A stretch of 64,000 bases of DNA, taken from positions 18,352,001-18,416,000 of the forward strand of contig OZ024749.1 of NCBI GenBank assembly GCA_964016885.1, given 5' to 3'. The stretch is from Eledone cirrhosa (taxonomy: Eukaryota). The notes under the pieces are model-generated. The model was not told the origin of the DNA. It saw only the letters and a list, made by a program, of their open reading frames with translations, and searched no databases. A program made the position numbers and the translations under genes. The first letter of the stretch is position 1, and each line of letters starts with the position of its first letter. Positions 3,840-64,000 of this stretch are shown one piece after another.

Positions 3840-3878
3840 TATATATATATATATATATATATAAATATATATATATAT

Positions 3879-4138
3879 AGTTTTGCGAGATAATTATAAA
3901 GAATTAGTATATCTAGTAACACAGATGCATACTTATGCTAGCAAATATATAGGTTTTGTCTTAGTAACTTTGTGGTTCAATGCATGGGGTTGCAGAACAA
4001 TAATATGAGAGACGTAAAATAAGAAAATTATAAAATTAACTTACTTACTAAAATTTCACTCCCAATGAAATTTTAGTAAGTAAGTTAATTTTATAATTTT
4101 CTTCTTTTACGTCTCTCATATTATTGTTCTGCAACCCC
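3879..4138. repeat. Dispersed fold-back fragment of the 522-bp satellite monomer
   Basis: Matches the 51198-64000 unit. 3986-4138 is a palindrome with ~73-bp arms and a 7-bp loop. Confidence 0.8.
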
Positions 4139-4669
4139 AAGTTAGCTAGATTGAAAAATTCTAATTAAATTAATACATTTTGCCTGTCTCGATTTAAAAT
4201 AATAAATCAATAAAAACAAACCCATATTGGCAATAACCGTGATACTTGGACAAATTTAAATTTCAAAATCCAAACCTGTTCCGCAGACAAATTTAAATTT
4301 CAAAACCCAAATAAGTTTCGCAACGATAATTTAAAAAAGTGAAAGATTCCAATTTCTGTGGTCATCGGCAGGTATCCAGAAAATTAGCATGTTTCACCTC
4401 GAAATATTTAGGAGGACTGGTATTCAAGTGCAACGCACGTGGTTTTCCAGCTCCTAGCTATCCCCATACTCATGGTGCTAGAAATAACAGCCGTTTATAC
4501 AGCCGTTTATATGAAACATGCTAATTTTCTGGATAATTTTCTGAGGTGTCCTACACGAGGTGTTTATCATATATTAATTTATATTAACTTGTATTTCACG
4601 GCTCAGAAATGCTTCTTCCTTTGAGCTAATTAATTGTAAATGACTGTTTGAGTTTAAACTCTAAATATA

Positions 4670-9711: not shown

Positions 9712-10998
<1,287 letters not shown>

Positions 10999-11002
<4 letters not shown>

Positions 11003-11872
11003 AAAGACGTAAAATAAGAAAATTTAAAAAAAATTTAATAAATTAACTTACTTACTAAAATTTTCACTCCAACTAATTAGTTTTTGCAATGGGATAAAGA
11101 CAGTTACGTAATATAACCATCGAGAATTCATTGCGTCATCAGGGAGTTTATTCTCAGCCAAGTCTCCAGGCAATGCGCGGACACTGGGGACTCATATAAA
11201 AATAATAATAATTCGGTAGATGGAACAGCTAGCGGGGGACTGGATTCCATGCACTGAAAAGCTCGCTGTCTCTGGTCAAATGGCAGATTCTAAAGAATCA
11301 ATCACGTGACACTGAGGCTAGTCGGAAGAAGTGGGATGGTAAGATGACAGAAGCCTACTACCACACCAATAAATTAGTAGTGGTTTTGGCAGGTTTGCTC
11401 AACAAATAAATAATTTGGAGATAAATATAGAGAATTTAGTATATCTACTAACATATGCGTACAAATGTACGCCAATGCTAGCAAACACATAAGTTATGTC
11501 ATAAGTTATGTCATAGGTGGTTCAATGCAGGAGGATGCAGAACAATAATATAAAAGACGTAAAATAAGAAAATTATAAAAAAATTAAAAAAATTAACTCA
11601 CTTACTAAAATTTTCACTCCAACTAATTTGTTTCTGCAATGGGATAAAGACAGTTACGTAATATAACCGTCGAGAATTCATTGCGTCATCAGGGAGTCTA
11701 TTCTCAGCCAAGTCTCCAGGCAATGCGCGGACACTGGGGACTCATATAAAAATAATAATAATTCGGTAGATGGAACAGCTAGCGGGGACTGGATTCCATG
11801 CACTGAAAAGCTCGCTGTCTCTGGTCAAATGGCAGATTCTAAAGAATCAATCACGTGACACTGAGGCTAGTC
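10999..11872 (-). repeat. ~1.6 copies of a 550-bp unit related to the 522-bp satellite
   Basis: TAAAAGACGTAAAATAAGAA at 11001 and 11551. It shows reverse-complement similarity to the satellite monomer, with CTGATGA at the position homologous to the satellite's CTGA(A/C)GA. Confidence 0.8.
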
Positions 11873-35532: not shown

Positions 35533-35826
35533 TCATCATCATCACTCGTCGACTACTGTCGAGATGATGGATCTCACTCTCATGCCCCAGAATGTCCTGT
35601 CCCCCATCGCTGCCCCCAGGTCCTGTCTACTGATTCCCGTATCCCTAGAGATAACGTCAGGGAATGACAGCTTCCTGCTCCTAGTCAGGCTGGAGTCAGG
35701 GTTCCAGAGGAAGAGAGCGGATATGATTTCATTGCTGGCACGGTGACAGTGGCCAACAAATTGAGCTCTCCGGGATTTTAGAAGGGCAGAGGCTCGAGGG
35801 AGTTTGCCATAGATTTTAGACAAGGT

Positions 35827-35830
<4 letters not shown>
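35533..35830 (-). mobile_element. RTE-clade LINE 3' fragment with (TGA)n tail
   Basis: [35 protein letters not shown] is typical of the RTE ORF C-terminus. TCATCATCATCA tail at 35533. Confidence 0.7.
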
Positions 35831-35904
<74 letters not shown>

Positions 35905-35905
<1 letters not shown>

Positions 35906-38900
35906 GAATATAGACACAGAATATTCGAAAATATTCTGTATGTTTATAATAAACATTTTGAAGACCTAATCGCTATAGAATAGAATACGTCACGTATTAC
36001 AATTAGATTCTCGATAAAAGCAAGGGAAGTAAGTCTACGCGTTTCATTCTTGTTAGAATTCATCAGGACTACATATCCAGTGCTTTTATCGAGAATGACA
36101 CAGCTAGAGACTTATAGAATACTTAGCTGTGTACAGGAACTGGTTTGAAAGAGCGGTTGCCGGTCCGGCAGAAATTAGAAATTGGAATAAATGCTCTGAA
36201 ATAGCGATATATATGTGAATATAGACACAGAATATTCCAATTTCTAATTTCTGCCGGACCGGCAACCGCTCTTTCAAACCAGTTCCTGTACACAGCTAAG
36301 TATTCTATAAGTCTCTAGCTGTGTCATTCTCGATAAAAGCACTGGATATGTAGTCCTGATGAATTCTAACAAGAATGAAACGCGTAGACTTACTTCCCTT
36401 GCTTTTATCGAGAATCTAATTGTAATACGTGACGTATTCTATTCTATAGCGATTAGGTCTTCAAAATGTTTATTATAAACATACAGAATATTTTCGAATA
36501 TTCTGTGTCTATATTCACATATATATCGCTATTTCAGAGCATTTATTCCAATTTCTAATTTCTGCCGGACCGGCAACCGCTCTTTCAAACCAGTTCCTGT
36601 ACACAGCTAAGTATTCTATAAGTCTCTAGCTGTGTCATTCTCGATAAAAGCACTGGATATGTAGTCCTGATGAATTCTAACAAGAATGAAACGCGTAGAC
36701 TTACTTCCCTTGCTTTTATCGAGAATCTAATTGTAATACGTGACGTATTCTATTCTATAGCGATTAGGTCTTCAAAATGTTTATTATAAACATACAGAAT
36801 ATTTTCGAATATTCTGTGTCTATATTCACATATATATCGCTATTTCAGAGCATTTATTCCAATTTCTAATTTCTGCCGGACCGGCAACCGCTCTTTCAAA
36901 CCAGTTCCTGTACACAGCTAAGTATTCTATAAGTCTCTAGCTGTGTCATTCTCGATAAAAGCACTGGATATGTAGTCCTGATGAATTCTAACAAGAATGA
37001 AACGCGTAGACTTACTTCCCTTGCTTTTATCGAGAATCTAATTGTAATACGTGACGTATTCTATTCTATAGCGATTAGGTCTTCAAAATGTTTATTATAA
37101 ACATACAGAATATTTTCGAATATTCTGTGTCTATATTCACATATATATCGCTATTTCAGAGCATTTATTCCAATTTCTAATTTCTGCCGGACCGGCAACC
37201 GCTCTTTCAAACCAGTTCCTGTACACAGCTAAGTATTCTATAAGTCTCTAGCTGTGTCATTCTCGATAAAAGCACTGGATATGTAGTCCTGATGAATTCT
37301 AACAAGAATGAAACGCGTAGACTTACTTCCCTTGCTTTTATCGAGAATCTAATTGTAATACGTGACGTATTCTATTCTATAGCGATTAGGTCTTCAAAAT
37401 GTTTATTATAAACATACAGAATATTTTCGAATATTCTGTGTCTATATTCACATATATATCGCTATTTCAGAGCATTTATTCCAATTTCTAATTTCTGCCG
37501 GACCGGCAACCGCTCTTTCAAACCAGTTCCTGTACACAGCTAAGTATTCTATAAGTCTCTAGCTGTGTCATTCTCGATAAAAGCACTGGATATGTAGTCC
37601 TGATGAATTCTAACAAGAATGAAACGCGTAGACTTACTTCCCTTGCTTTTATCGAGAATCTAATTGTAATACGTGACGTATTCTATTCTATAGCGATTAG
37701 GTCTTCAAAATGTTTATTATAAACATACAGAATATTTTCGAATATTCTGTGTCTATATTCACATATATATCGCTATTTCAGAGCATTTATTCCAATTTCT
37801 AATTTCTGCCGGACCGGCAACCGCTCTTTCAAACCAGTTCCTGTACACAGCTAAGTATTCTATAAGTCTCTAGCTGTGTCATTCTCGATAAAAGCACTGG
37901 ATATGTAGTCCTGATGAATTCTAACAAGAATGAAACGCGTAGACTTACTTCCCTTGCTTTTATCGAGAATCTAATTGTAATACGTGACGTATTCTATTCT
38001 ATAGCGATTAGGTCTTCAAAATGTTTATTATAAACATACAGAATATTTTCGAATATTCTGTGTCTATATTCACATATATATCGCTATTTCAGAGCATTTA
38101 TTCCAATTTCTAATTTCTGCCGGACCGGCAACCGCTCTTTCAAACCAGTTCCTGTACACAGCTAAGTATTCTATAAGTCTCTAGCTGTGTCATTCTCGAT
38201 AAAAGCACTGGATATGTAGTCCTGATGAATTCTAACAAGAATGAAACGCGTAGACTTACTTCCCTTGCTTTTATCGAGAATCTAATTGTAATACGTGACG
38301 TATTCTATTCTATAGCGATTAGGTCTTCAAAATGTTTATTATAAACATACAGAATATTTTCGAATATTCTGTGTCTATATTCACATATATATCGCTATTT
38401 CAGAGCATTTATTCCAATTTCTAATTTCTGCCGGACCGGCAACCGCTCTTTCAAACCAGTTCCTGTACACAGCTAAGTATTCTATAAGTCTCTAGCTGTG
38501 TCATTCTCGATAAAAGCACTGGATATGTAGTCCTGATGAATTCTAACAAGAATGAAACGCGTAGACTTACTTCCCTTGCTTTTATCGAGAATCTAATTGT
38601 AATACGTGACGTATTCTATTCTATAGCGATTAGGTCTTCAAAATGTTTATTATAAACATACAGAATATTTTCGAATATTCTGTGTCTATATTCACATATA
38701 TATCGCTATTTCGGAGCATTTATTCCAATTTCTAATTTCTGCCGGACCGGCAACCGCTCTTTCAAACCAGTTCCTGTACACAGCTAAGTATTCTATAAGT
38801 CTCTAGCTGTGTCATTCTCGATAAAAGCACTGGATATGTAGTCCTGATGAATTCTAACAAGAATGAAACGCGTAGACTTACTTCCCTTGCTTTTATCGAG

Positions 38901-39971
38901 AATCTAATTGTAATACGTGACGTATTCTATTCTATAGCGATTAGGTCTTCAAAATGTTTATTATAAACATACAGAATATTTTCGAATATTCTGTGTCTAT
39001 ATTCACATATATATCGCTATTTCAGAGCATTTATTCCAATTTCTAATTTCTGCCGGACCGGCAACCGCTCTTTCAAACCAGTTCCTGTACACAGCTAAGT
39101 ATTCTATAAGTCTCTAGCTGTGTCATTCTCGATAAAAGCACTGGATATGTAGTCCTGATGAATTCTAACAAGAATGAAACGCGTAGACTTACTTCCCTTG
39201 CTTTTATCGAGAATCTAATTGTAATACGTGACGTATTCTATTCTATAGCGATTAGGTCTTCAAAATGTTTATTATAAACATACAGAATATTTTCGAATAT
39301 TCTGTGTCTATATTCACATATATATCGCTATTTCAGAGCATTTATTCCAATTTCTAATTTCTGCCGGACCGGCAACCGCTCTTTCAAACCAGTTCCTGTA
39401 CACAGCTAAGTATTCTATAAGTCTCTAGCTGTGTCATTCTCGATAAAAGCACTGGATATGTAGTCCTGATGAATTCTAACAAGAATGAAACGCGTAGACT
39501 TACTTCCCTTGCTTTTATCGAGAATCTAATTGTAATACGTGACGTATTCTATTCTATAGCGATTAGGTCTTCAAAATGTTTATTATAAACATACAGAATA
39601 TTTTCGAATATTCTGTGTCTATATTCACATATATATCGCTATTTCAGAGCATTTATTCCAATTTCTAATTTCTGCCGGACCGGCAACCGCTCTTTCAAAC
39701 CAGTTCCTGTACACAGCTAAGTATTCTATAAGTCTCTAGCTGTGTCATTCTCGATAAAAGCACTGGATATGTAGTCCTGATGAATTCTAACAAGAATGAA
39801 ACGCGTAGACTTACTTCCCTTGCTTTTATCGAGAATCTAATTGTAATACGTGACGTATTCTATTCTATAGCGATTAGGTCTTCAAAATGTTTATTATAAA
39901 CATACAGAATATTTTCGAATATTCTGTGTCTATATTCACATATATATCGCTATTTCAGAGCATTTATTCCA

Positions 39972-39975
<4 letters not shown>
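35905..39975 (+). repeat. 12 head-to-tail copies of a 311-bp HHR-containing unit preceded by one inverted unit (non-LTR retrozyme-like)
   Basis: CTGATGA cores at 36356, 36667, 36978 ... 39777 (period 311). Each reads AGUC-CUGAUGA-AUUCU AACA AGAAU-GAAA-CGCG-UA-GACU. Inverted unit at 35905-36235; (TA)n flanks. Confidence 0.92.
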
Positions 39976-40052
<77 letters not shown>

Positions 40053-40057
40053 ATAGT

Positions 40058-40084
<27 letters not shown>

Positions 40085-40089
<5 letters not shown>

Positions 40090-41022
40090 AAGAAAAAGAG
40101 ATGAAATCGAAAATGCAACTGGAGTCTTATTTTCTTTTTAAATATATATATTTATTTGGTTCCTTTACCGGTTTCGCAGTTCTTCTGCTTTTCAAAAGGT
40201 GAGTTGAGATGGAGGGTCTGTGGTTTTTCTCACATCTGGTTGGTCAATGAGTGTTACTTGTTTTATATGGAAAAAGTGGCTCGAAATGCCAGGCTTTTCG
40301 AGAAGTAATTTGATTGGTTTGTCAATAATTATAATAAATTTCGCGCCAGTTCGCGTTACAATAGTTCTTCAAATAAGAGGGGGGGGTTGTCACAGGTTGT
40401 TTTTTTCATATATGAGTGTTTGAATTTCTTTTTACTTGAAAAAAGGGGCTCACGAAGGCTTTTTTTTGGTTGGTTATAAATGAAATTATGGCTGTCACGT
40501 GAACAAGTGCCCTTATTTGGAAATCCATTCTGTAGCCTTTTTAGAGAATTTTATAAGTGAAAGATAATGGTCAAGAGAAAGGGATGGGAGAATTGTTCTG
40601 GTTCAGTGAATATGGTTAGTTCGCTGGGGTGTCAGAATTCAGATTTTCTATTGAATAAAGAAAGTAAAGACATGTATGTTTATTTGTGTGCTTGTGTGTG
40701 TGTGCGTGTGCGTGTGTGTGTGTTGTGTGTGTGTGTGTGTTTGAATTTCTTTACTTTAAAAAAAAGGTGGCTCACGAAGGCTTTTTTTTAATAAACGTGA
40801 TTTGATTGGTTATAAATGAAATTTGGCTGTCACGTGAACAAGTTTTCATTACATTTTTGCGCCCTTATTTGGAAATCTATTCTGTAGCCTTTATAGAGAA
40901 TGTTATGACAAGGGAAAGATGGTGGTCAAGAGAAATGGGATTGAGAAATATGGTTAGTTCGCTGGGGTGTCAGAGTTCAGATTTTCTATTGAAGTAAAGA
41001 TGTGTATGTTTATTTGTGTGCT

Positions 41023-41077
<55 letters not shown>

Positions 41078-42617
41078 ATTGGAAGATGATTCTATTAGTA
41101 GAAATGGGGGAGGGAGTTGTGTGTGTGTGTGTATGGGTGTTATGTGTGTGTGTGCGAGTATGTTAAGATGGAGAGAATATATATTTTGTGTGTGTGTATA
41201 TATGTGTGTAGGAAAGTGGTTCTATTAGTAGAAATGGGGGAGGGAGTTGTGGGTGTGGGGGTTGTTATGTGTGTGTATGGGTGTTATGTGTGTGGGAGTA
41301 TGGTTAGCATGTTAAGATGAAGAGAATATATATATATATATATTGTGTGTGTGTGTGTGTAGGAAAATGATTCCTTTAGTAGGAATATTTTTGAATGAAC
41401 ATATTTTCCTTACTTATTCGTATTTGTTCTGCTGTATTGTCAGTGCAAACGTATGTTAAGGTTTATTTAGTTCGGGTTTTTATTTTCTAAAGTAGAAGGT
41501 GTTATGTGTGTGTGTGTATGTCATATTATGGTGTTGACATAATGTATATTAAACCATATTTAATGCTGGTCTATATTTTTGAATAAACATATTTTCCTTA
41601 TTTATTCGTATTTGTTCTGTTGTGTTGTTAGCGCAAAGGTAAAATGGGAAGACTTGGAATTTGGGTGTCTTATTACTTGCGCAAATGTCTAGATGTGCAC
41701 TTAGTGGTATCTGTCTCGTGGTTGGATCTCGTAATTGTTGGCGATGAACTGTCATTCTGTTTCTGAGTGTGAGTTTAGTTTGTCCTATATAATCTTCATT
41801 GCATCAGTTACATTTAATGGCATAAAGTAGATTTTTTGATGAGCAAGTGAAGTGATTTTTTACAGTAAAATTTTATCCTGATTTAAATGTATACGTGTTA
41901 CCTTCAATGAGGTGAGTGCAGGTTCCACAATTAGAGCGAGTGCAGGTTCCACAATTAGAGCGACCACATTTTTTGATACTTGGTTGTGGGTTTGTGGTAG
42001 GTAATTTGGCATTGGTGAGTAATGTTTTCAGTGATTTTGGTTGTTTTTTGCTTTTGATTATTTTGTGTGTTTCAAGGGCTTTTTTTCATTCTTGGGTTTT
42101 GTTTTAGTAGTGGGATGTTCTTGTGAATAGTGTTGTAAGCTTCCGCATTTCTTGGGTTGTGTGTTGAGATATATGATAGAATATTGGACGTACCTTGAAT
42201 TTGTTTCTGTTTCCGTAATTCATCAATGCCTATTGCTTTAGCCCTTTCTATTCCATTATTTATTAGTAATAGTGGGTACTCTCTCTCGAGTAGAATTTCC
42301 TTTAATTCTTGAAGTCTTTTATTTTGCGTTTCATAATTGGAGACAATTGTGCAAATTCTTCTTGCTAGGTTAAAAGGAATGTTCGTCTTCGTGTGCTTTG
42401 GATGGTTGGAGGTGAATAGCAGATATTGTTTGGAATCTGTTGGTTTGTAATGTATGTCAGTTTAGATATTTGTGTCTTTTTTTAAGATTAAGATGTCCAG
42501 AAATGGGAGTTGATCTTGGCTGTATTCCATTGTGAATTGGATGTGGTTATTGATGCCGTTTATTAAGTTTTTGAAATCCTTCAGTTGGTCGAGTGTGTGG
42601 GGCCAAAGAATGAGGCA

Positions 42618-42621
<4 letters not shown>
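40085..42621 (-). mobile_element. Degenerate 5'-truncated Neptune-type PLE with U3-A8 HHR at 40160-40201
   Basis: Minus strand reads DCLILW, QFTMEYS, LPFLDI, SNHPKHTK, CGRSNCGTC and LYAIKCN*CNEDYIGQT, homologous to ORF 6157-8304, with stops and frameshifts. HHR: CCUU-UUGAAAA-GCAG..CUGC-GAAA-CCGG-UA-AAGG. Confidence 0.85.
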
Positions 42622-51197: not shown

Positions 51198-51200
<3 letters not shown>

Positions 51201-54200
51201 TAACAAACCACTTTCCACTGATTGACCTCGATGTCACGTGATTGATTCTTTTTGAATGTGCCACCGACGCAGAGGCAGTGATTTTCTCAATGGCTAGGAA
51301 TTCAGTCCACGCTTTGCTATTTTCTATCCACTGAATTATTTTTGTATAAGTTTCCAGAGTCCTCGCATTGCCTGGATACTTAGCTGAGAATAGTCTTCCC
51401 TGAAGACGAAATGATTCTCAATATTTTCTTCGGAAAGTATATTTATTCCATTTCAGAAACTAATTAGATGGGAGTGAAATTTTAGTAAGTAAGTTAATTT
51501 TATAATTTTCTTATTTTACGTCTCTCATATTATTGTTCTACAACCCCATGCATTGAACCACAAAGTTACTAAGACAAAACCTATATATTTGCTAGCATTG
51601 ATATTCATCTGTATGTATATATATGTTACTAGATATTAATTCTTTATAATTATCTCCAAATTATTTGTATAGCAATATTGGCCAAGACTGCTGCTATGGT
51701 GGCAGGCAGGCCGCTGTCTTATTAACAAACCACTTTCCACTGATTGACCTCGATTGTCATGTGATTGATTCTTTATGAATTTGCCACCGACGCAGAGGCA
51801 GTGATTTTCTCAATGGCTAGGAATTCAGTCCACACTTTGCTATTTTCCATACACTGAATTATTTTTGTATAAGTTTTCAGAGTCCTCGCTTTGCCTGGAT
51901 AATTAGCTGAGAATAGTCTTCCCTGACATCGAAAAGATTCTCTATATTTTCTTCGGAAAATATATTTATTCCATTAAAGAAACTAATTAGTTGGGAGTGA
52001 AATTTTAGTAAGTAAGTTAATTTTATAATTTTCTTATTTTACGTCTCTCATATTATTGTTCTGCAGCCCCATGCATTGAACCACAAAGTTACTAAGACAA
52101 AACCTATATATTTGCTGGCATTGATATGCATCTGTATGTATATATATGTTACTAGATATTAATTCTTTATAATTATCTCCAAATTATTTGTCGAGCAATA
52201 TTGGCCAAGACTGCCGCTATGGTGGCAGGCCGCTGTCTTATTAACAAACCACTTTCCACTGATTGACCTTGATGTCACGTGATTGATTCTTTTTGCATTT
52301 GCCACCGACGCGGAGGCAGTGATTTTCTCAATGGCTAGGAATTCAGTCCACACTTTGCTATTCTCTATCCACTGAATTATTTTTGTATAAGTTTCCAGAG
52401 TCCTCGCTTTGCCTGGATACTTAGCTGAGAATAGTCTTCCCTGAAGACGAAATGATTCTCAATATTTTCTTCGGAAAGCATATTTATTCCATTTCAGAAA
52501 CTAATTAGTTGGGAGTGAAATTTTAGTAAGTAAGTTAATTTTATAATTTTCTTATTTTACGTCTCTCATTTTATTGTTCTACAACCCCATGCATTGAACC
52601 ACAAAGTTACTAAGACAAAACCTATATATTTGCTAGCATTGCTATGCATCTGTATGTATATATATGTTACTAGATATTAAATCTTTATAATTATCTCCAA
52701 ATTATTTCTCTAACATTATTGGCCAAGACTGCTGCTATGGTGGCAGGCAGGCCGCTGTCTTATTAACAAACCACTTTCCACTGATTGACCTCGATGTCAC
52801 GTGATTGATTCTTTGTGAATGTGCCACCGACGCAGAGGCAGTGATTTTCTCAATGGCTAGGAGTTCAGTCCTCGCTTTGCTATTTTCTATCCACTGAATT
52901 ATTTTTGTATAAGTTTTCAGAGTCCTCGCTTTGCCTGGATACTTAGCTGAGAATAGTCTTCCCTGACGACGAAATGATTCTCAATATTTTCTTCGGAAAG
53001 TATATTTATTCCATTTCAGAAACTAAATAGTTGGGAGTGAAATTTTAGTAAGTAAGTTAATTTTATAATTTTCTTATTTTACGTCTCTCATATTATTGTT
53101 TTGCAACCCCATGCATTGAACCACAAAGTTACTAAGACAAAACCTATATATTTGCTAGCATTGCTATGCATCTGTATGTATATATATGTTACTAGATATT
53201 AAATCTTTATAATTATCTCCAAATTATTTCTCTAACATTATTGGCCAAGACTGCTGCTATGGTGGCAGGCAGGCCGCTGTCTTATTAACAAACCACTTTC
53301 CACTGATTGACCTCGATGTCACGTGATTGATTCTTTTTGTATTTGCCACCGACGCGGAGGCAGTGATTTTCTCAATGGCTAGAAATTCAATCCACGCTTT
53401 GCTATTTTCTATCCACTGAATTATTTTTGTATAAGTTTCCAGAGTTCTCACTTTGCCTGGATACTTAGCTGAGAATAGTCTTCCCTGACGACGAAATGAT
53501 TCTCAATATTTTCTTCGGAAAGTATATTTATTCCATTTCAGAAACTAATTAGTTGGGAGTGAAATATTAGTAAGTAAGTTAATTTTATATTTTTCTTATT
53601 TTACGTCTCTCATATTATTGTTCTGCAACCCCATGCATTGAACCACAAAGTTACTAAGACAAAACCTATATATTTGCTAGCATTGATATGCATCAGTATG
53701 TATATATATGTTACTAGATATTAATTCTTTATAATTATCTCCAAATTATTTGTCGAGCAATATTGGCCAAGATTGCTGCTATGGTGGCAGGCAGGCCGCT
53801 GTCTTATTAACAAACCACTTTCCACTGATTGACCTTGATGTCACGTGATTGATTCTTCTTGTATTTGCCACCGACGTGGAGGCAATGATTTTCTCAATGG
53901 CTAGGAATTCAGTCCACACTTTGCTATTTTCTATCCACTGAATTATTTTTATATAAGTTTCCAGAGTCCTCGCTTTGCCTGGATACTTAGCCGAGAATAG
54001 TCTTCCCCGAAGACGAAATGATTCTCTATATTTTCTTCGGAAAGTATATTTATTCCATTTCAGAATCTAATTAGTTGGGAGTGAAATTTTAGTAAGTAAG
54101 TTAATTTTATAATTTTCTTATTTTACGTCTCTCATATTATTGTTCTGCAACCCCATTCATTGAACCACAAAGTTACTAAGACAAAACCTATATATTTGCT

Positions 54201-57200
54201 ACCATTGATATGTATCTGTATGTATATATATGTTACTAGATATTAATTCTTTATAATTATCTCCAAATTATTTGTATAGCAATATTGGCCAAGACTGCTG
54301 CTATGGTGGCAGGCAGGCCGCTGTCTTATTAACAAACCACTTTCCACTGATTGATCTCGATGTCATGTGATTGATCCTTTTTGTATTTGCCACCGACGCG
54401 GAGGCAGTGATTTTCTCAATGGCTAGGAATTCAGTCCACACTTTGCTATTCTCTATCCACTGAATTATTTTTGTATAAGTTTCCAGAGTCCTCGCTTTGC
54501 CTGGATACTTAGCTGAGAATATTCTTCCCTGAAGACGAAATGATTCTCAATATTTTCTTCGGAAAGCATATTTATTCCATTTCAGAAACTAATTAGTTGG
54601 GAGTGAAATTTTAGTAAGTAAGTTAATTTTATAATTTTCTTATTTTACGTCTCTCATTTTATTGTTCTACAACCCCATGCATTGAACCACAAAGTTACTA
54701 AGACAAAACCTATATATTTGCTAGCATTGATATGCATCTGTATGTATATATATGTTACTAGATATTAAATCTTTATAATTATCTCCAAATTATTTCTCTA
54801 ACATTATTGGCCAAGACTGCTGCTATGGTGGCAGGCAGGCCGCTGTCTTATTAACAAACCACTTTCCACTGATTGACCTCGATGTCACGTGATGGATTCT
54901 TTGTGAATGTGCCATCGACGCAGAGGAAGTGATTTTCTCAATGGCTAGGAGTTCAGTCCACGCTTTGCTATTTTCTATCCACTGAATTATTTTTGTATAA
55001 GTTTTCAGAGTCTTCGCTTTGCCTGGATACTTAGCTGAGAATAGTCCTCCCTGACGACGAAATGATTCTCAATATTTTCTTCGGAAAGTATATTTATTCC
55101 ATTTCAGAAACTAAATAGTTGGGAGTGAAATTTTAGTAAGTAAGTTAATTTTATAATTTTCTTATTTTACGTCTCTCATATTATTGTTCTGCAACCCCGT
55201 GCATTGAACCACAAAGTTACTAACACAAAACCTATATATTTGCTAGCATTGATATGCATCTGTATGTATATATATGTTACTAGATATTAATTCTTTATAA
55301 TTATCTCCAAATTATTTGTCGAGCAATATTGGCCAAGACTGCTGCTATGGTGGCAGGCAGGCCGCTGTCTTATTAACAAACCACTTTCCACTGATTGACC
55401 TTGATGTCACGTGATTGATTCTTCTTGTATTTGGCACCGACGTGGAGGCAATGATTTTCCCAATGGCTAGGAATTCAGTCCACACTTTGCTATTTTCTAT
55501 CCACTGAATTATTTTTATATAAGTTTCCAGAGTCCTCGCTTTGCCTGGATACTTAGCTGAGAATAGTCTTCCCCGAAGACGAAATGATTCTCTATATTTT
55601 CTTCGGAAAGTATATTTATTCCATTTCAGAAACTAATTAGTTGGGAGTGAAATTTTAGTAAGTAAGCTAATTTTATAATTTTCTTATTTTACGTCTCTCA
55701 TTTTATTGTTCTGCAACCCCATGCATTGAACCACAAAGTTACTAAGACAAAACCTATATATTTGCTACCATTGATATGCATCTGTATGTATATATATGTT
55801 ACTAGATATTAATTCTTTATAATTATCTCCAAATTATTTGTCGAGCAATATTGGCCAAGACTGCTGCTATGGTGGCAGGCAGGCCGCTGTCTTATTAACA
55901 AACCACTTTCCACTGATTGACCTTGATGTCACGTGATTGATTCTTTTTGTATTTGCCACCGACGCGGAGGCAGTGATTTTCTCAATGGCTAGGAATTCAG
56001 TCCACACTTTGCTATTTTCTATCTACTGAATTATTTTTGTATAAGTTTCCAGAGTCCTCGCTTTGCCTGGATACTTAGCTGAGAATAGTCTTCCCTGAAG
56101 ACGAAATGATTCTCAATATTTTCTTCGGAAAGTATATTTATTCCATTTCAGAAACTAATTAGTTGGGAGTGAAATTTTAGTAAGTAAGCTAATTTTATAA
56201 TTTTCTTATTTTACGTCTCTCATTTTATTGTTTTACAACCCCATGCATTGAACCACAAAGTTACTAAGACAAAACCTATATATTTGCTAGCATTGCTATG
56301 CATCTGTATGTATATATATGTTACTAGATATTAAATCTTTATAATTATCTCCAAATTATTTGTCGAGCAATATTGGCCAACACAGCTGCTATGATGGCAG
56401 GCAGGCCGCTGTCTTATTAACAAACCACTTTCCACTGATTGACCTCGATGTCACGTGAGTGATTCTTTTTGAATGTGCCACCGACGCAGAGGCAGTGATT
56501 TTCTCAATGGCTAGGTATTCAGTCCACGCTTTGCTATTTTCTATCCACTGAATTATTTTTGTATAAGTTTTCAGAGTCCTCGCTTTGCCTGGATACTTAG
56601 CTGAGAATAGTCTTCCCTGAAGACGAAATGATTCTCAATATTTTCTTCGGAAAGCATATTTATTCCATTTCAGAAACTAATTAGTTGGGAGTGAAATTTT
56701 AGTAAGTAAGTTAATTTTATAATTTTCTTATTTTACGTCTCTCATTTTATTGTTCTACAACCCCATGCATTGAACCACAAAGTTACTAAGACAAAACCTA
56801 TATATTTGCTAGCATTGCTATGCATCTGTATGTATATATATGTTACTAAATCTTTATAATTATCTCCAAATTATTTCTCTAACATTATTGGCCAAGACTG
56901 CTGCTATGGTGGCAGGCAGGCCGCTGTCTTATTAACAAACCACTTTCCACTGATTGATTCGATGTCACGTGATTGATCCTTTTTGTATTTTCCTCCGACG
57001 CGGAGGCAATGATTTTCTCAATGGCTCGGAATTCAGTCCACGCTTTGCCATTTTCTATCCACTGAATTATATTTGTATAAGTTTCCATAGTTCTCACTTT
57101 GCCTGGATACTTAGCTGAGAATAGTCTTCCCTGACGACGAAATGATTCTCAATATTTTCTTCGGAAAGTATATTTATTCCATTTCAGAAACTAATTAGTT

Positions 57201-60200
57201 GGGAGTGAAATTTTAGTAAGTAAGTTAATTTTATAATTTTCTTATTTTACGTCTCTCATATTATTGTTCTGCAACCCCATGCATTGAACCACAAAGTTAC
57301 TAAGACAAAACCTATATATTTGCTACCATTGATATGTATCTGTATGTATATATATGTTACTAGATATTAATTCTTTATAATTATCTCCAAATTATTTGTG
57401 GAGCAATATTGGCCAAGACTGCCGCTATGGTGGCAGGCCGCTGTCTTATTAACAAACCACTTTCCACTGATTGACCTTGATGTCACGTGATTGATTCTTT
57501 TTGTATTTGCCACCGACGCGGAGGCAGTGATTTTCTCAATGGCTAGGAATTCAGTCCACACTTTCCTATTTTCTATCCACTGAATTATTTTTGTATAAGT
57601 TTCCAGAGTCCTCGCTTTGTCTGGATACTTAGCTGAGAATAGTCTTCCCTGAAGACGAAATGATTCTCAATATTTTCTTCGGAAAGTATATTTATTCCAT
57701 TTCAGAAACTAATTAGTTGGGAGTGAAATATTAGTAAGTAAGTTAATTTTATATTTTTCTTATTTTACGTTTCTCATATTATTGTTCTGCAACCCCATGC
57801 ATTGAACCACAAAGTTACTAAGACAAAACCTATATATTTGCTAGCATTGATATGCATCTGTATGTATGTATATGTTACTAGATATTAATTCTTTATAATT
57901 ATCTCCAAATTATTTGTCGAGCAATATTGGCCAAGACTGCTGCTATGGTGGCAGGCAGGCCGCTGTCTTATTAACAAACCACTCTCCACTGATTGACCTT
58001 GATGTCACGTGATTGATTCTTTTTGTATTTGCCACCGACGCGGAGGTAGTGATTTTCTCAATGGCTAGGAATTCAGTCCACACTTTGCTATTTTCTATCC
58101 ACTGAATTATTTTTGTATAAGTTTCCAGATTCCTCGATTTGCCTGGATACTTAGCTGAGAATAGTCTTCCCTGAAGACGAAATGATTCTCAATATTTTCT
58201 TCGGTAAGTATATTTATTCCATTTCAGAAACTAATTAGTTGGGAGTGAAATTTTAGAAAGTAAGATAACTTTATAATTTTCTTATTTTACGTCTCTCATA
58301 TTATTGTTCTACAACCCCATGCATTGCACCACAAAGTTACTAAGACAAAACCTATATATTTGCTAGCATTGATATGCATCTGTATTTATATATATGTTAC
58401 TAGATATTAATTCTTTATAATTATCTCCAAATTATTTGTCTAGCAATATTGGCCAAGACTGCTGCTATGATGGCAGGCAGGCCGCTGTCTTATTAACAAA
58501 CCACTTTCCACTGATTGACCTCGATGTCACGTGATTGATTCTTTTTGAATGTGCCACCGACGCAGAGGCAGTGATTTTCTCAATGGCTAGGAGTTCAGTC
58601 CACGCTTTGCTATTTTCTATCCACTGAATTATTTTTGTATAAGTTTCCAGAATCCTCGCTTTGCCTGGATACTTAGCTGAGAATAGTCTTCCCTGACGAC
58701 GAAATGATTCTCAATATTTCTTCCGAAAGTATATTTATTCCATTTCAGAAACTAATTAGTTGGGAGTGAAATTTTAGTAAGTAAGTTAATTAAAATATTT
58801 TCTTATTTTACGTCTCTCATATTATTGTTCTGCAACCCCATGCATTGAACCACAAAGTTACTAAGACAAAACCTATATATTTGCTAGCATTGATATGCAT
58901 CTGTATGTATATATATATGTTACTAGATATTAATTCTTTATAATTATCTCCAAATTATTTGTCGAGCAATATTGGCCAAGACTGCTATTATGGTGGCAGG
59001 CAAGCCGCTGTCTTATTAACAAACCACTCTCCAGTGATTGACCTTGATGTCACGTGATTGATTCTTTTTGTATTTGCCACCGACGCGGAGGCAGTGATTT
59101 TCTCAATGGCTAGGAATTCAGTCCACACTTTGCTATTTTCTATCCACTGAATTATTTTTGTATAAGTTTCCAGATTCCTCGATTTGCCTGGATACTTAGC
59201 TGAGAATAGTCTTCCCTGAAGACGAAATGATTCTCAATATTTTCTTCCGAAAGTATATTTATTCCATTTCATATATTAAATAGTTGGGAGTGAAATTTTA
59301 GTAAGTAAGTTAATTTTATAATTTTCTTATTTTACGTCTCTCATATTATTGTTCTACTACCCCATGCATTGAACCACAAAGTTACTAAGACAAAACCTAT
59401 ATATTTGCTAGCATTGATATGCATCTGTATGTATATATATGTTACTAGATATTAATTCTTTATAATTATCTCCAAATTATTTGTCTAGCAATATTGGCCA
59501 AAACTGCTGCTATGATGGCAGGCTAGCCGCTGTCTTATTAACAAACCACTTTCCACTGATTGACCTTGATGTCACGTGATTGATTCTTTTTGAATTTGCC
59601 ACCGACGCAGAGGCAGTGATTTTCTCAATGGCTAGGAATTCAGTCCAGGCTTTGCTATTTTCTATCCACTGAATTATTTTTGTATAAGTTTCCAGAGTCC
59701 TCGCTTTGCCTGGATACTTAGCTGGGAAAAGTCTTCCCTGACGACGAAATGATTCTCAATATTTTCTTCGTAAAGTATATTTATTCCATTTCAGAAACTA
59801 ATTAGCTGGGAGTGAAATTTTAGTAAGTAAGTTAATTTTATAATTTTCTTATTTTACGTTTCTCATATTATTGTTCTATAACCCCATGCATTGAACCGCA
59901 CAGTTACTAAGACAAAACCTATATATTTGCTAGCATTGATATGCATCTGTATGTATATATATGTTACTAGATATTAATTCTTTATGATTATCTCCAAACT
60001 ATTTGTCGAGCAATATTGGCCAAGACTGCTGCTATGGTGGCAGGCAGGCCGCTGTCTTATTAACAAACCACTTTCCACTGATTGACCTCGATTGTCACGT
60101 GATTGATTCTTTTTGTATTTCTCACCGACGCGGAGGCAGTGATTTTCTCAATGGCTAGGAATTCAGTCCACACTTTGCTATTTTCTATACACTGAATTAT

Positions 60201-63200
60201 TTTTGTATAAGTTTCCAGAGTCCTCGCTTTGCCTGGATACTTAGCTGAGAATAGTCGTCCCTGACGACGACATGATTCTCAATATTTTCTTCGGAAAGTA
60301 TATTTATTCCATTACAGAAACTAATTAGTTGGGAGTGAAATTTTAGCAAGTAAGTTTATTTTATAATTTTCTTATTTTACGTCTCTCATATTATTGTTCT
60401 ACAACCCCGTGCATTGTACCACAAAGTTACTAAGACAAAACCTATATATTTGCTAGCATTGATATGCATCTGTATGTATATATATGTTACTAGATATTAA
60501 TTCTTTATAATTATCTCCAAATTATTTGTCTGGCAATATTGGCCAAGACTGCTGCTATGATGGCAGGCAGGCCGCTGTCTTATTAACAAACCACCTTCCA
60601 CTGATTGACCTCGATGTCACGTGATTGATTCTTTTTGAATGTGCCACCGACGCAGAGGCACTGATTTTCTCAATGGCTAGGAGTTCAGTCCACGCTTTGC
60701 TATTTTCTATCCACTGAATTATTTTTGTATAAGTTTCCAGAGTCCTCGCTTTGCCTGGATACTTAGCTGAGAATAGTCTTCCCTGACGACGAAATGATTC
60801 TCAATATTTCTTCCGAAAGTATATTTATTCCATTTCATAAATTAAATAGTTGGGAGTGAAATTTTAGTAAGTAAGTTAATTTTATAATTTTCTTATTTTA
60901 CGTCTCTCATATTATTGTTCTACTACCCCATGCATTGAACCACAAAGTTACTAAGACAAAACCTATATATTTGCTAGCATTGATATGCATCTGTATGTAT
61001 ATATATGTTACTAGATATTAATTCTTTATAATTATCTCCAAATTATTTGTCTAGCAATATTGGCCAAAACTGCTGCTATGATGGCAGGCAGGCCGCTGTC
61101 TTATTAACAAACCACTTTCCACTGATTGACCTCGATGTCACGTGATTGATTCTTTTTGAATGTGCCACCGACGCAGAGGCAGTGATTTTCTCAATGGCTA
61201 GGAGTTCAGTCCACGCTTTGCTATTTTCTATCCACTGAATTATTTTTGTATAAGTTTCCAGAGTCCTCGCTTTGCCTGGATACTTAGCTGAGAATAGTCT
61301 TCCCTGACGACGAAATGATTCTCAATATTTCTTCCGAAAGTATATTTATTCCATTTCAGAAACTAATTAGTTGGGAGTGAAATTTTAGTAAGTAAGTTAA
61401 TTAAAATATTTTGTTATTTTACGTCTCTCATATTATTGTTCTGCAACCCCATGCATTGAACCACAAAGTTACTAAGACAAAACCTATATATTTGCTAGCA
61501 TTGATATGCATCTGTATGTATATATATATATGTTACTAGATATTAATTCTTTATAATTATCTCCAAATTATTTGTCGAGCAATATTGGCCAAGACTGCTG
61601 CTATGGTGGCAGGCAAGCCGCTGTCTTATTAACAAACCACTCTCCACTGATTGACCTTGATGTCACGTGATTGATTCTTTTTGTATTTACCACCGACGCG
61701 GAGGCAGTGATTTTCTCAATGGCTAGGAATTCAGTCCACACTTTGCTATTTTCTATCCACTGAATTATTTTTGTATAAGTTTCCAGAGTCCTCGCTTTGT
61801 CTGGATACTTAGCTGAGAATAGTCTTCCCTGAAGACGAAATGATTCTCAATATTTTCTTCGGAAAGTATATTTATTCCATTTCAGAAACTAATTAGTTGG
61901 GAGTGAAATATTAGTAAGTAAGTTAATTTTATATTTTTCTTATTTTACGTTTCTCATATTATTGTTCTGCAACCCCATGCATTGAACCACAAAGTTACTA
62001 AGACAAAACCTATATATTTGCTAGCATTGATATGCATCTGTATGTATGTATATGTTACTAGATATTAATTCTTTATAATTATCTCCAAATTATTTGTCGA
62101 GCAATATTGGCCAAGACTGCTGCTATGGTGGCAGGCAGGCCGCTGTCTTATTAACAAACCACTCTCCACTGATTGACCTTGATGTCACGTGATTGATTCT
62201 TTTTGTATTTGCCAACGACGCGGAGGCAGTGATTTTCTCAATGGCTAGGAATTCAGTCCACACTTTGCTATTTTCTATCCACTGAATTATTTTTGTATAA
62301 GTTTCCAGATTCCTCGATTTGCCTGGATACTTAGCTGAGAATAGTCTTCCCTGAAGACGAAATGATTTTCAATATTTTCTTCGGTAAGTATATTTATTCC
62401 ATTTCAGAAACTAATTAGTTGGGAGTGAAATTTTAGTAAGTAAGTTAATTTTATAATTTTCTTATTTTACGTCTCTCATATTATTGTTCTACAACCCCAT
62501 GCATTGAACCACAAAGTTACTAAGACAAAACCTATATATTTGCTAGCATTGATATGCATCTGTATGTATATATATGTTACTAGATATTAATTCTTTATAA
62601 TTAGCTCCAAATTATTTGTGGAGCAATATTGGCCAAGACTGCCGCTATGGTGGCAGGCCGCTGTCTTATTAACAAACCACTTTCCACTGATTGACCTTGA
62701 TGTCACGTGATTGATTCTTTTTGTATTTGCCACCGACGCGGAGGCAGTGATTTTCTCAATGGCTAGGAATTCAGTCCACACTTTGCTATTTTCTATCCAC
62801 TGAATTATTTTTGTATAAGTTTCCAGAGTCCTCGCTTTGTCTGGATACTTAGCTGAGAATAGTCTTCCCTGAAGACGAAATGATTCTCAATATTTTCTTC
62901 GGAAAGTATATTTATTCCATTTCAGAAACTAATTAGTTGGGAGTGAAATATTAGTAAGTAAGTTAATTTTATATTTTTCTTATTTTACGTTTCTCATATT
63001 ATTGTTCTGCAACCCCATGCATTGAACCACAAAGTTACTAAGACAAAACCTATATATTTGCTAGCATTGATATGCATCCGTATGTATGTATATGTTACTA
63101 GATATTAATTCTTTATAATTATCTCCAAATTATTTGTCGAGCAATATTGGCCAAGACTGCTGCTATGGTGGCAGGCAGGCCGCTGTCTTATTAACAAACC

Positions 63201-64000
63201 ACTCTCCACTGATTGACCTTGATGTCACGTGATTGATTCTTTTTGTATTTGCCACCGACGCGGAGGCAGTGATTTTCTCAATGGCTAGGAATTCAGTCCA
63301 CACTTTGCTATTTTCTATCCACTGAATTATTTTTATATAAGTTTCCAGATTCCTCGATTTGCCTGGATACTTAGCTGAGAATAGTCTTCCCTGAAGACGA
63401 AATGATTCTCAATATTTTCTTCGGTAAGTATATTTATTCCATTTCAGAAACTAATTAGTTGGGAGTGAAATTTTAGAAAGTAAGATAATTTTATAATTTT
63501 CTTATTTTACGTCTCTCATATTATTGTTCTACAACCCCATGCATTGCACCACAAAGTTACTAAGACAAAACCTATATATCTGCTAGCATTGATATGCATC
63601 TGTATGTATATATATGTTACTAGATATTAATTATTTATAATTATCTCCAAATTATTCGTCTAGCAATATTGGCCAACACTGCTGCTATGATGGCAGGGTG
63701 GCCGCTGTCTTATTAACAAACCACTTTCCACTGATTGACCTCGATGTCACGTGATTGATTCTTTTTGAATGTGCCACCGACGCAGAGGCAGTGATTTTCT
63801 CAATGGGTAGGTATTCAGTCCACGCTTTGCTATTTTCTATCCACAGAATTATTTTTATGTAACTTTCCAGAGTCCTCGCTTTGCCTGGATACTTAGCTGA
63901 GAATAGTCTTCTCTGACGACGAAATGATTCTCAATATTTTCTTCGGAAAGTATATTTATTCCATTTCAGAAACTAATTAGTTGGGAGTGAAATTTTAGTA
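51198..64000. repeat. Tandem satellite, ~522-bp monomer, ~24.5 copies, continues past the window end
   Basis: CCCTGA(A/C)GACGAAATG recurs at 51400, 51923, 52441, 52963, 53485 ... 63913. Units differ by a few percent. Confidence 0.95.

What the first reader, a model, noticed from the sequence alone, without database searches (positions are those of the whole stretch)
35905..39975. Near-identical 12 x 311-bp hammerhead array: a recently inserted retrozyme / circular-RNA concatemer
Seen: each unit has a textbook minimal type I HHR with palindromic stem III (ACGCGU, the dimer-active form). It is enclosed by a perfect 15-bp stem (TTCTCGATAAAAGCA/TGCTTTTATCGAGAA) and followed by further hairpins (ACAGAATATT/AATATTCTGT, TGCCGG-A-CCGGCA, ACAGCTA/TAGCTGT). 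I noticed only one variant (38713). Known: metazoan non-LTR retrozymes are 170-400-nt HHR tandem repeats that yield circRNAs and are thought to be mobilised by PLEs. Inference: the (TA)n flanks and the inverted 5' unit match the PLE insertions here, suggesting rolling-circle reverse transcription of a 311-nt circle in a single event.
Basis: partly seen in the sequence, partly recalled or inferred. Interest (0 to 1): 0.8.

Follow-up and report, generated by a model that had tools for sequence, protein, structure and literature searches.

The report
Ribozyme RNA circles copied into genome
This is one of well over a thousand young, back-to-back arrays of a 310-base ribozyme-bearing repeat whose fixed end points and shared mutations indicate that each array was likely copied in one step, from both sides of a DNA break, off a single small RNA circle that had likely been RNA-edited beforehand.

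Summary
Observation confirmed: 12.04 x 311 bp on + (36233-39975, one SNV at 38713), a 333-bp inverted arm (35905-36237), (TA)n on both sides. It is a non-LTR retrozyme of a family with 17,464 exact unit marks genome-wide, roughly 1,300-1,800 insertions. Across 170 complete two-armed insertions, arms lie head-to-head. In 169, one arm ends at unit 127-140 (an AU tract) and the other at 160-173. None had two like ends, and no end at the hammerhead cleavage site was found. This is the 30-40 bp one-sided tail of Penelope-like elements (PLEs). Both arms share a haplotype (136 of 140), loci differ, private variants are fixed array-wide, and the cleavage junction is crossed 1,842 times without excess error. 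A monomer circle copied by rolling-circle reverse transcription from both break ends fits best. Array-wide variants are A>G-rich (20 of 53, against 13 of 206 single-unit variants; replicated), suggesting A-to-I edits written into DNA. Not shown: cleavage, circRNA, the partner PLE.

The parts
35905..36237 (-). Inverted arm, 1.07 units; outer (RNA 3') end at unit position 131, site A, next to the AUAUAUAU tract; inner end at position 110
   Evidence: unit position 1 = first base after the predicted GUA cleavage (window 36698)
36233..39975 (+). Direct arm, 12.04 units of 311 bp; inner end at unit position 158, outer end at 168, site B (tail-bearing end)
36233..36237 (.). Inversion junction with 5-nt microhomology TATTC
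36652..36708 (+). Type I hammerhead of one unit (core from 36667; predicted cleavage after 36697); palindromic ACGCGU helix III, predicted active as a dimer; repeated every 311 bp
   Evidence: cofold of two helix III halves
36637..36725 (+). 15-17 bp stem enclosing the ribozyme, covarying in the sister family
36828..36870 (+). Tail region of one unit (positions 131-173): site A, AU tract, invariant GCTATTTCAGAGC mini-hairpin, site B
38713..38713 (+). Only variant in the array (A>G, one unit)
35830..35904 (.). Left (TA)n target flank
39976..40089 (.). Right (TA)n target flank
40090..42620 (-). Neighbour, not part of the insertion: broken PLE (RT and GIY-YIG-type fragments; clade label Neptune-like is recalled) with its own hammerhead (U3-A8 form, ACCGGU helix III) about 80 nt from its (TA)n junction

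Best explanation
The array is a non-coding hammerhead retrozyme insertion in a (TA)n repeat, made of two back-to-back arms that end at two fixed sites, and it was likely written in one event by a Penelope-type reverse transcriptase copying one 311-nt RNA circle round and round from both ends of the cut target. Steps: (1) inferred: tandem transcripts self-cleave at GUA as hammerhead dimers and monomers are ligated into circles. (2) Inferred from the A>G excess: some templates are A-to-I edited. (3) Inferred: a PLE GIY-YIG/RT protein, probably a dimer, cuts both strands of (TA)n. (4) Shown as a sequence rule, inferred as priming: one DNA end starts at site A, where (TA)n can pair with the RNA's 8-10 nt AU tract, and the other at site B, about 35 nt downstream with only 1-2 nt of homology. 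(5) Inferred: each end copies 0.2 to more than 20 laps and stops at a scattered position. (6) Shown as junction structure: the two ends are joined head-to-head through short microhomology or small inserts.
For: End rule: 38 of 38 outward-facing end pairs on C1 1-115 Mb are A+B (p 4e-12). 113 of 113 complete two-armed insertions in the first set are A+B, including 12 of 12 picked without regard to ends and 37 of 37 picked on the A end alone. In the replication set picked on the B end alone, 56 of 57 are A+B, counted from the listing. Unit end at the cleavage site followed by TA: 0 genome-wide. Inner ends are scattered: 6 of 228 and 3 of 116 lie at positions 1-10, against about 7 and 4 expected. 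One template per insertion: arms identical at all polymorphic columns in 95 of 98 and 41 of 42, against shuffled means of 10.2 and 7.1. 38 haplotypes among 98 insertions; 20 of 125 arrays carry variants private to them and fixed across the array. Cleavage/ligation junction crossed 1,287 + 555 times with 3 + 1 departures in a 5-column window, the background rate. Over 350 lap-matched unit pairs, 93 column pairs held a minor letter and only 7 were shared by both arms, in 2 insertions. Junction overlap mean 2.8 nt against 0.76 for random joins. RNA-level signs: covariation; no fixed variant in the 12 core positions; strand-specific A>G, 20 of 53 fixed substitutions against 13 of 206 single-unit ones (p 5e-8; new sites in the replication set 7 of 12 against 3 of 66). 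Literature: inverted 5' copy, one-sided 30-40 bp tail and (TA)n targets are PLE traits (PMC8557442); a PLE RT cuts and extends both strands, starts at two internal sites that bound the tail, and is predicted to be a dimer (PMC11167929).
Against: No RNA evidence for cleavage, circles or editing. No autonomous PLE sharing this unit's tail or pLTR was found in the loci examined; the flanking PLE has a tail of about 65 nt and no similarity above shuffles (score 73 against 74 +/- 5). Three insertions (L074, L131, L142) share a variant in the outermost laps of both arms and then switch, which fits a linear multimer or a concerted template switch better than one circle. PMC11167929 found unprocessed RNA to be the main substrate in vitro and no difference in start site between strands. 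Inner ends in the first set are mildly non-uniform (Rayleigh p 0.013) and arm lengths depart from exponential (KS p 0.011). 21 of 135 first-set insertions show one arm only (two of them are cut by a gap or the fetch edge). Long arms show block duplications, so some growth after insertion occurs (L135, L059). The absence of fixed core variants is not significant on its own (2.2 expected). Single-unit variants are themselves skewed (T>C 37 against A>G 13), so they are an imperfect neutral control.
Confidence: 0.75

Rival explanations
1. Same PLE twin priming, but the template is an uncleaved linear multimeric transcript of an older array rather than a circle.
For: [quoted passage not shown] L074, L131 and L142 have lap-matched variants in both arms. 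A clean junction is expected for a multimer too.
Against: A source array with about 0.14 variants per unit should pass roughly 40 lap-matched variants to 350 unit pairs (my estimate); 2 events were counted, 3 with L142. It cannot fix a private variant in every unit of both arms, as seen in 20 of 125 arrays.
Confidence: 0.12
2. A short PLE-type insertion is expanded afterwards by unequal crossing-over or slippage and homogenised like a satellite.
For: This is the model discussed in bioRxiv 10.64898/2026.07.22.740005. Block duplications exist in L135, L059 and L063.
Against: Both arms, in opposite orientation, carry the same array-wide variants (136 of 140). Single-unit variants are almost all unique rather than spread to neighbours. 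Both arms are multi-unit in most loci.
Confidence: 0.05
3. The A>G excess comes from selection for G-U-compatible changes in stems or from a polymerase bias, not from A-to-I editing; the rest of the model stands.
For: 16 of 20 A>G sites are predicted paired with U (58 of 92 for all A). Polarity rests on the commonest letter per column, not on an outgroup. Avoidance of a 5' G is not significant (p 0.18).
Against: C>T is equally wobble-compatible but rare among fixed changes (4, against 20 A>G) and common among single-unit changes (29 against 13). A>G clusters in single arrays (L245: 4 sites, L267: 3) and recurs on several backgrounds (sites 21, 260, 277). A 5' U precedes 13 of 20 sites against 36 of 92. 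The ADAR neighbour preference is recalled.
Confidence: 0.35
4. A DNA circle excised from an array is amplified by rolling-circle DNA synthesis and reinserted.
For: It would also give a monomer bottleneck and a clean junction.
Against: It does not explain two fixed RNA-polarity start sites matching the PLE tail, the same two-site rule in a neighbouring PLE family, conserved RNA structure or the strand-specific A>G bias.
Confidence: 0.04
5. The arrays or their palindromic junctions are assembly artefacts.
For: Head-to-head repeats can be made by fold-back reads, and this copy's junction was not bridged by a public contig.
Against: Arms are unequal and end at different fixed sites, junctions are off-centre and locus-specific, and haplotypes are locus-specific. 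Short-read contigs of run X1 show several other inversion joints, and X1-X3 show TA loose ends at site B; these runs may be the sample the assembly came from.
Confidence: 0.02

Closest known systems
Metazoan non-LTR retrozymes (PMC7229834; bioRxiv 10.64898/2026.07.22.740005)
   Same: Low-GC tandem unit of about 310 nt, one type I hammerhead per unit with a weak palindromic helix III as in axolotl HHR_Amex1, no coding capacity, thousands of copies, PLEs in the same genome.
   Different: In the parts read, circle-templated reverse transcription by PLEs is a proposal, and the 2026 preprint leans on local expansion and pLTR phylogeny. The word 'invert' occurs there only in 'invertebrate' and a reference title. 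Here the arrays carry the PLE insertion footprint, a strict two-site end rule, a monomer bottleneck and an A>G signature.
Penelope-like elements: inverted 5' copy and 30-40 bp tail (PMC8557442; PAc in PMC11167929)
   Same: (TA)n target, inverted truncated arm, tail on one end only, two start sites downstream of a hammerhead.
   Different: No ORF. Each arm is many laps of a short unit. The two sites are used strictly one per arm in vivo, whereas the in vitro study saw no strand difference. Site A has 8-10 nt of possible primer pairing, unlike PAc.
LINE-1 twin priming (recalled, no call)
   Same: Both target strands prime on one RNA, giving a head-to-head inversion joined by microhomology.
   Different: L1 uses the poly(A) end plus a variable internal site on a linear RNA, so the arms cover different parts. 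Here both sites are fixed and internal, and both arms copy the same sequence repeatedly.
MRC1 and other non-autonomous Chlamys PLEs (passage in PMC8557442)
   Same: Non-autonomous PLE passengers with multicopy head-to-tail insertions.
   Different: Naiad-type elements lack canonical hammerheads, and MRC1-type elements resemble their autonomous partners at the 3' end; no such partner was found here.

Membership tests
Non-LTR retrozyme | Type I hammerhead in every tandem unit | tested here: met
   Core pattern in 13 of 13 window units; covariation including C3-G8/U3-A8; Rfam only sub-threshold
Non-LTR retrozyme | Tandem unit of about 170-400 nt, GC below 50% | tested here: met
   311 nt, 108 of 311 G+C
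Non-LTR retrozyme | No protein-coding ORF, no LTR pair | tested here: met
   No ORF of 120 aa or more inside the array; insertions are only unit repeats between (TA)n. PBS/PPT not searched separately.
Non-LTR retrozyme | Dispersed multi-locus family coexisting with PLEs | tested here: met
   17,464 unit marks; PLE RT and GIY-YIG-type ORFs in the window (Pfam scores just under the curated cut-offs)
Non-LTR retrozyme | Self-cleavage of the transcript | not testable with these tools
   Structure only
Non-LTR retrozyme | Expression as monomeric circular RNA | not testable with these tools
   Indirect genomic signs only
PLE-mobilised insertion | Inverted 5'-truncated copy next to the main copy | tested here: met
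   114 of 135 first-set insertions and 57 of 60 replication loci are two-armed
PLE-mobilised insertion | 30-40 bp tail at one end only | tested here: met
   Ends at 131-140 against 164-173 in most copies, modal offset 33-35 nt; 169 of 170
PLE-mobilised insertion | (TA)n / AT-rich target | tested here: met
   237 of 248 outer ends followed by a dinucleotide repeat (most loci were picked on one TA-flanked end); matching impure repeats on both sides in some loci
PLE-mobilised insertion | Sequence shared with the pLTR of an autonomous PLE | tested here: inconclusive
   None found in the fetched loci, a small part of the genome
Autonomous PLE | RT plus GIY-YIG ORF | tested here: not met
min-HHR of PLE pLTRs (PMC4209133) | Short helix I, 7-8 bp helix II, helix III absent or minimal | tested here: not met
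   Helix I of 6 bp or more within a long stem, 5-bp helix II: the canonical form

The most novel reading that the evidence does not exclude
A PLE reverse-transcriptase dimer loads on one small ribozyme circle at two dedicated sites, one per cut DNA strand, and rolls out both arms of each insertion; the circles are A-to-I edited first, so RNA edits are written into the germline as whole arrays and drive the element's sequence evolution.
Probability: 0.45. Interest if true: 0.85.

Novelty: new variant of a known kind. Interest (0 to 1): 0.68.

Why it matters
How retrozymes get into animal genomes, and why PLEs leave inverted copies with a tail on one end only, are open questions that the papers read here leave as proposals. 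This family gives a large in vivo record that separates the models: circle against multimer against satellite expansion, and one start site per DNA strand. It also supplies a defined 310-nt substrate with two mapped start sites for an in vitro test. If the A>G signal is editing, it is a natural case of RNA edits becoming heritable DNA in about 0.2% of a genome.

Tried and rejected
Rfam at gathering level over the whole window: nothing. Sequencing-run search: no RNA holder listed; this says nothing about expression. Runs X4 and X5 hold a cyclic contig of about 310 nt ('goes back 311') and X6 a 340-nt contig of the unit, but the run kind is unknown and tandem DNA gives the same picture, so this was not used. 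This copy's junction was not covered by a bridging contig. Ends at the cleavage site, the linear-monomer model: 0 matches. Telomerase-like TA addition at site A: flanks at A and B ends are equally long (loose repeat median 56 against 58, p 0.99), rejected. Partner PLE: tblastn and motif scans of the window, the first-set loci and 30 sister-family loci found no ORF attached to this tail. An apparent likeness to the flanking PLE's 3' end did not beat shuffles. Earlier findings of this scan: three look-ups, nothing. Literature searches for prior reports of the end rule or of editing listed none by title or abstract start; the library lacks most subscription papers. Rows left out before counts: L001-L030 (sub-stretches of arrays refetched whole); 13 short hits (10 from the sister family, 2 inner fragments of L046, 1 overlap with L075); one of two duplicate copies beside a gap in L119. 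8-12 nt at arm ends were trimmed and columns with fewer than 3 passes skipped for variant calls; columns 129-175 were skipped in the lap-matched test.

Full report
OBSERVATION. The direct arm runs 36233-39975 (12.04 x 311 bp, one A>G at 38713). An exact inverted arm runs 35905-36237 and overlaps it by 5 nt; (TA)n lies on both sides. Every unit holds a type I hammerhead core with a 5-bp stem II and a palindromic ACGCGU helix III inside a 15-17 bp stem. Rfam scores it below threshold. By the definitions in PMC4209133 (passages read) it is the canonical metazoan form, expected to cleave as a dimer. Unit positions below count from the base after the predicted GUA cleavage (window 36698).

FAMILY. 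An interior 29-mer occurs 17,464 times in the 3.0-Gb genome, about 5.4 Mb. End patterns give 1,252 site-A ends and 741 site-B matches on the forward strand alone. Units divided by mean array size give about 1,800 insertions. An older sister family of about 314-325 bp (5,482 tail motifs) keeps the same fold. In a 17-row alignment, 95% of cells pair and 15 of 28 pairs change on both sides, including C3-G8 to U3-A8; 0 of 500 shuffles reach this and slid controls give 37-48%. The rows are related, so the shuffle count is not a probability.

INSERTION ANATOMY. First set: 135 insertions, 114 two-armed and head-to-head, 21 one-armed. All 113 complete two-armed ones have one arm ending at 127-140 (site A) and the other at 160-173 (site B). 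Part of this set was picked as known pairs, so the independent tests are these: 12 of 12 picked by unit similarity, 37 of 37 picked on A alone, and 38 of 38 pairs from two separate end lists. A replication set of 60 loci picked on one B-end variant gave 57 two-armed insertions: 56 ended at 140 and one at 109; 2 were single-armed and 1 was cut by the fetch (counted from the listing because three loci have a small extra inner piece). No end at the cleavage site followed by TA exists genome-wide. At A the target repeat can pair with the RNA's AU tract over 8-10 nt; at B only 1-2 nt match. Inner ends are scattered round the unit, with mild non-uniformity in the first set. Junctions show microhomology (mean 2.8 against 0.76 nt), and 27 of 114 have inserted letters, often copied locally. 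Arms average 4.5 (A) and 5.9 (B) units and reach 45.

LINK TO PLEs. PMC8557442 (passages read) describes an inverted 5'-truncated copy, a 30-40 bp tail often on one end only, and (TA)n targets. PMC11167929 (parts 1-2 of 4 read) shows a PLE protein cutting and extending both strands from two internal start sites that bound the tail, with a predicted dimer. The retrozyme arrays carry this whole footprint. The PLE family flanking the window array (11,632 hammerhead marks) also ends at two sites, about 76-82 and about 140 nt after its cleavage site. Of 9 neighbouring opposite-strand pairs among 30 loci, 6 have one of each, one has a long end with a still shorter end, one has two long ends and one is unclear. 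Its tail is unrelated in sequence, so it is not shown to be the partner; none was found.

TEMPLATE. Arms of one insertion are identical at all polymorphic columns in 95 of 98 and 41 of 42 cases, against shuffled means of 10.2 and 7.1. Loci differ: 38 haplotypes among 98, and 20 of 125 arrays have private variants fixed across the array, for example A89T in 25 of 25 passes in L082. Single-unit variants occur at 4.5-5.7 per 10,000 bases, about 0.14-0.18 per unit, close to the share of arrays with a private variant, as expected if each array starts from one unit. The cleavage junction is crossed 1,842 times with 4 departures, the background rate, which argues against jumping between linear monomers. 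Lap-matched sharing between arms is rare (7 column pairs in 2 insertions over 350 unit pairs, plus L142), which argues against a multimer as the usual template. Those three cases do show both arms starting in the same unit of the same molecule, and they suggest a multimer or a concerted switch in a minority of events. Block duplications in long arms show some later growth.

A>G SIGNAL. Against the commonest letter per column, 20 of 53 distinct array-wide substitutions are A>G in the ribozyme strand (T>C 7, C>T 4, G>A 3), against 13 of 206 single-unit substitutions (p 5e-8). New sites in the replication set alone give 7 of 12 against 3 of 66. Sites recur on several backgrounds, cluster in L245 and L267, are mostly predicted paired, and follow U in 13 of 20 cases. 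A-to-I editing of the template is my reading (about 0.6). Wobble tolerance alone fails because C>T is not enriched. Weak points: no RNA data, polarity by majority, a non-significant 5' G test, and a control class with its own T>C skew, perhaps from RT errors. The fold-back RNA of a read-through across both arms is an alternative substrate (inference).

COMPARISON AND NOVELTY. The element meets every testable criterion of a non-LTR retrozyme. PMC7229834 (passages and the whole Discussion read; supplement S9 not seen) proposes circle-templated tandem cDNA with PLEs as candidates. bioRxiv 10.64898/2026.07.22.740005 (part 1 of 5, passages and Discussion read; supplements not seen) links retrozymes to pLTRs and discusses local expansion. 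Neither part read reports two-armed arrays, the one-site-per-arm rule, a monomer bottleneck or editing, and nine searches (other hits seen as listings only) showed no such report. Unseen supplements and subscription papers could hold one. L1 twin priming, ADAR preferences and the PLE clade names are recalled. The host group was not established.

VERDICT. A real, young retrozyme insertion. The family is of a known kind, but it gives unusually direct genomic evidence on how such arrays are made. Confidence in PLE-driven two-ended copying of a monomer circle is 0.75; interest 0.68.

Noticed in passing
window 51198-64000: Satellite of about 522 bp, about 95% identical between copies, running off the window; related pieces, partly inverted, at 3877-4139 and 10998-11866. 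No hammerhead core or Rfam hit seen.
   Followed up: partly
window 15686 (-), 16802, 21758, 35043 (+), 50479 (-): Further hammerheads with GAAACAUUGU helix III in PLE-associated repeats, most a short distance from (TA)n junctions.
   Followed up: partly
window 40090-42620 (-); L196-L225: PLE family with a U3-A8 hammerhead (11,632 marks) and two 3' end sites about 65 nt apart, mostly one per arm in inverted pairs.
   Followed up: partly
L037, L050, L060, L103, L119, L165: Other tandem hammerhead families with units of about 430-510 bp and CUAG helix III, some also in inverted arrangements.
   Followed up: no
L108, L111, L141, L151, L166-L195: Older sister family (314-325 bp) with the same tail and similar end sites, short arrays, and many U3-A8 cores.
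   Followed up: partly
L074: Both arms read haplotype X for two laps and then haplotype Y: a concerted template switch or a chimeric multimer.
   Followed up: partly
L156: B arm reads A at site 277 for four laps and then G, while the A arm is all G; this would fit B-first synthesis with an edit or switch in between. Single case.
   Followed up: partly
L063:1598-1871: 272 bp of unrelated GC-rich sequence between the two arms.
   Followed up: no
L135:510-14588: 45-unit arm with variants repeated in blocks, a sign of expansion after insertion.
   Followed up: partly
runs X4, X5, X6 laid on window 36000-36560: One 340-nt contig of the unit at low depth in each of three runs labelled with other organisms than X1-X3; run kind unknown.
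   Followed up: no
window 35542-35829 (-): Left neighbour looks like the 3' end of a LINE ending in (ATG)n; the label is recalled and Pfam gave no hit.
   Followed up: partly
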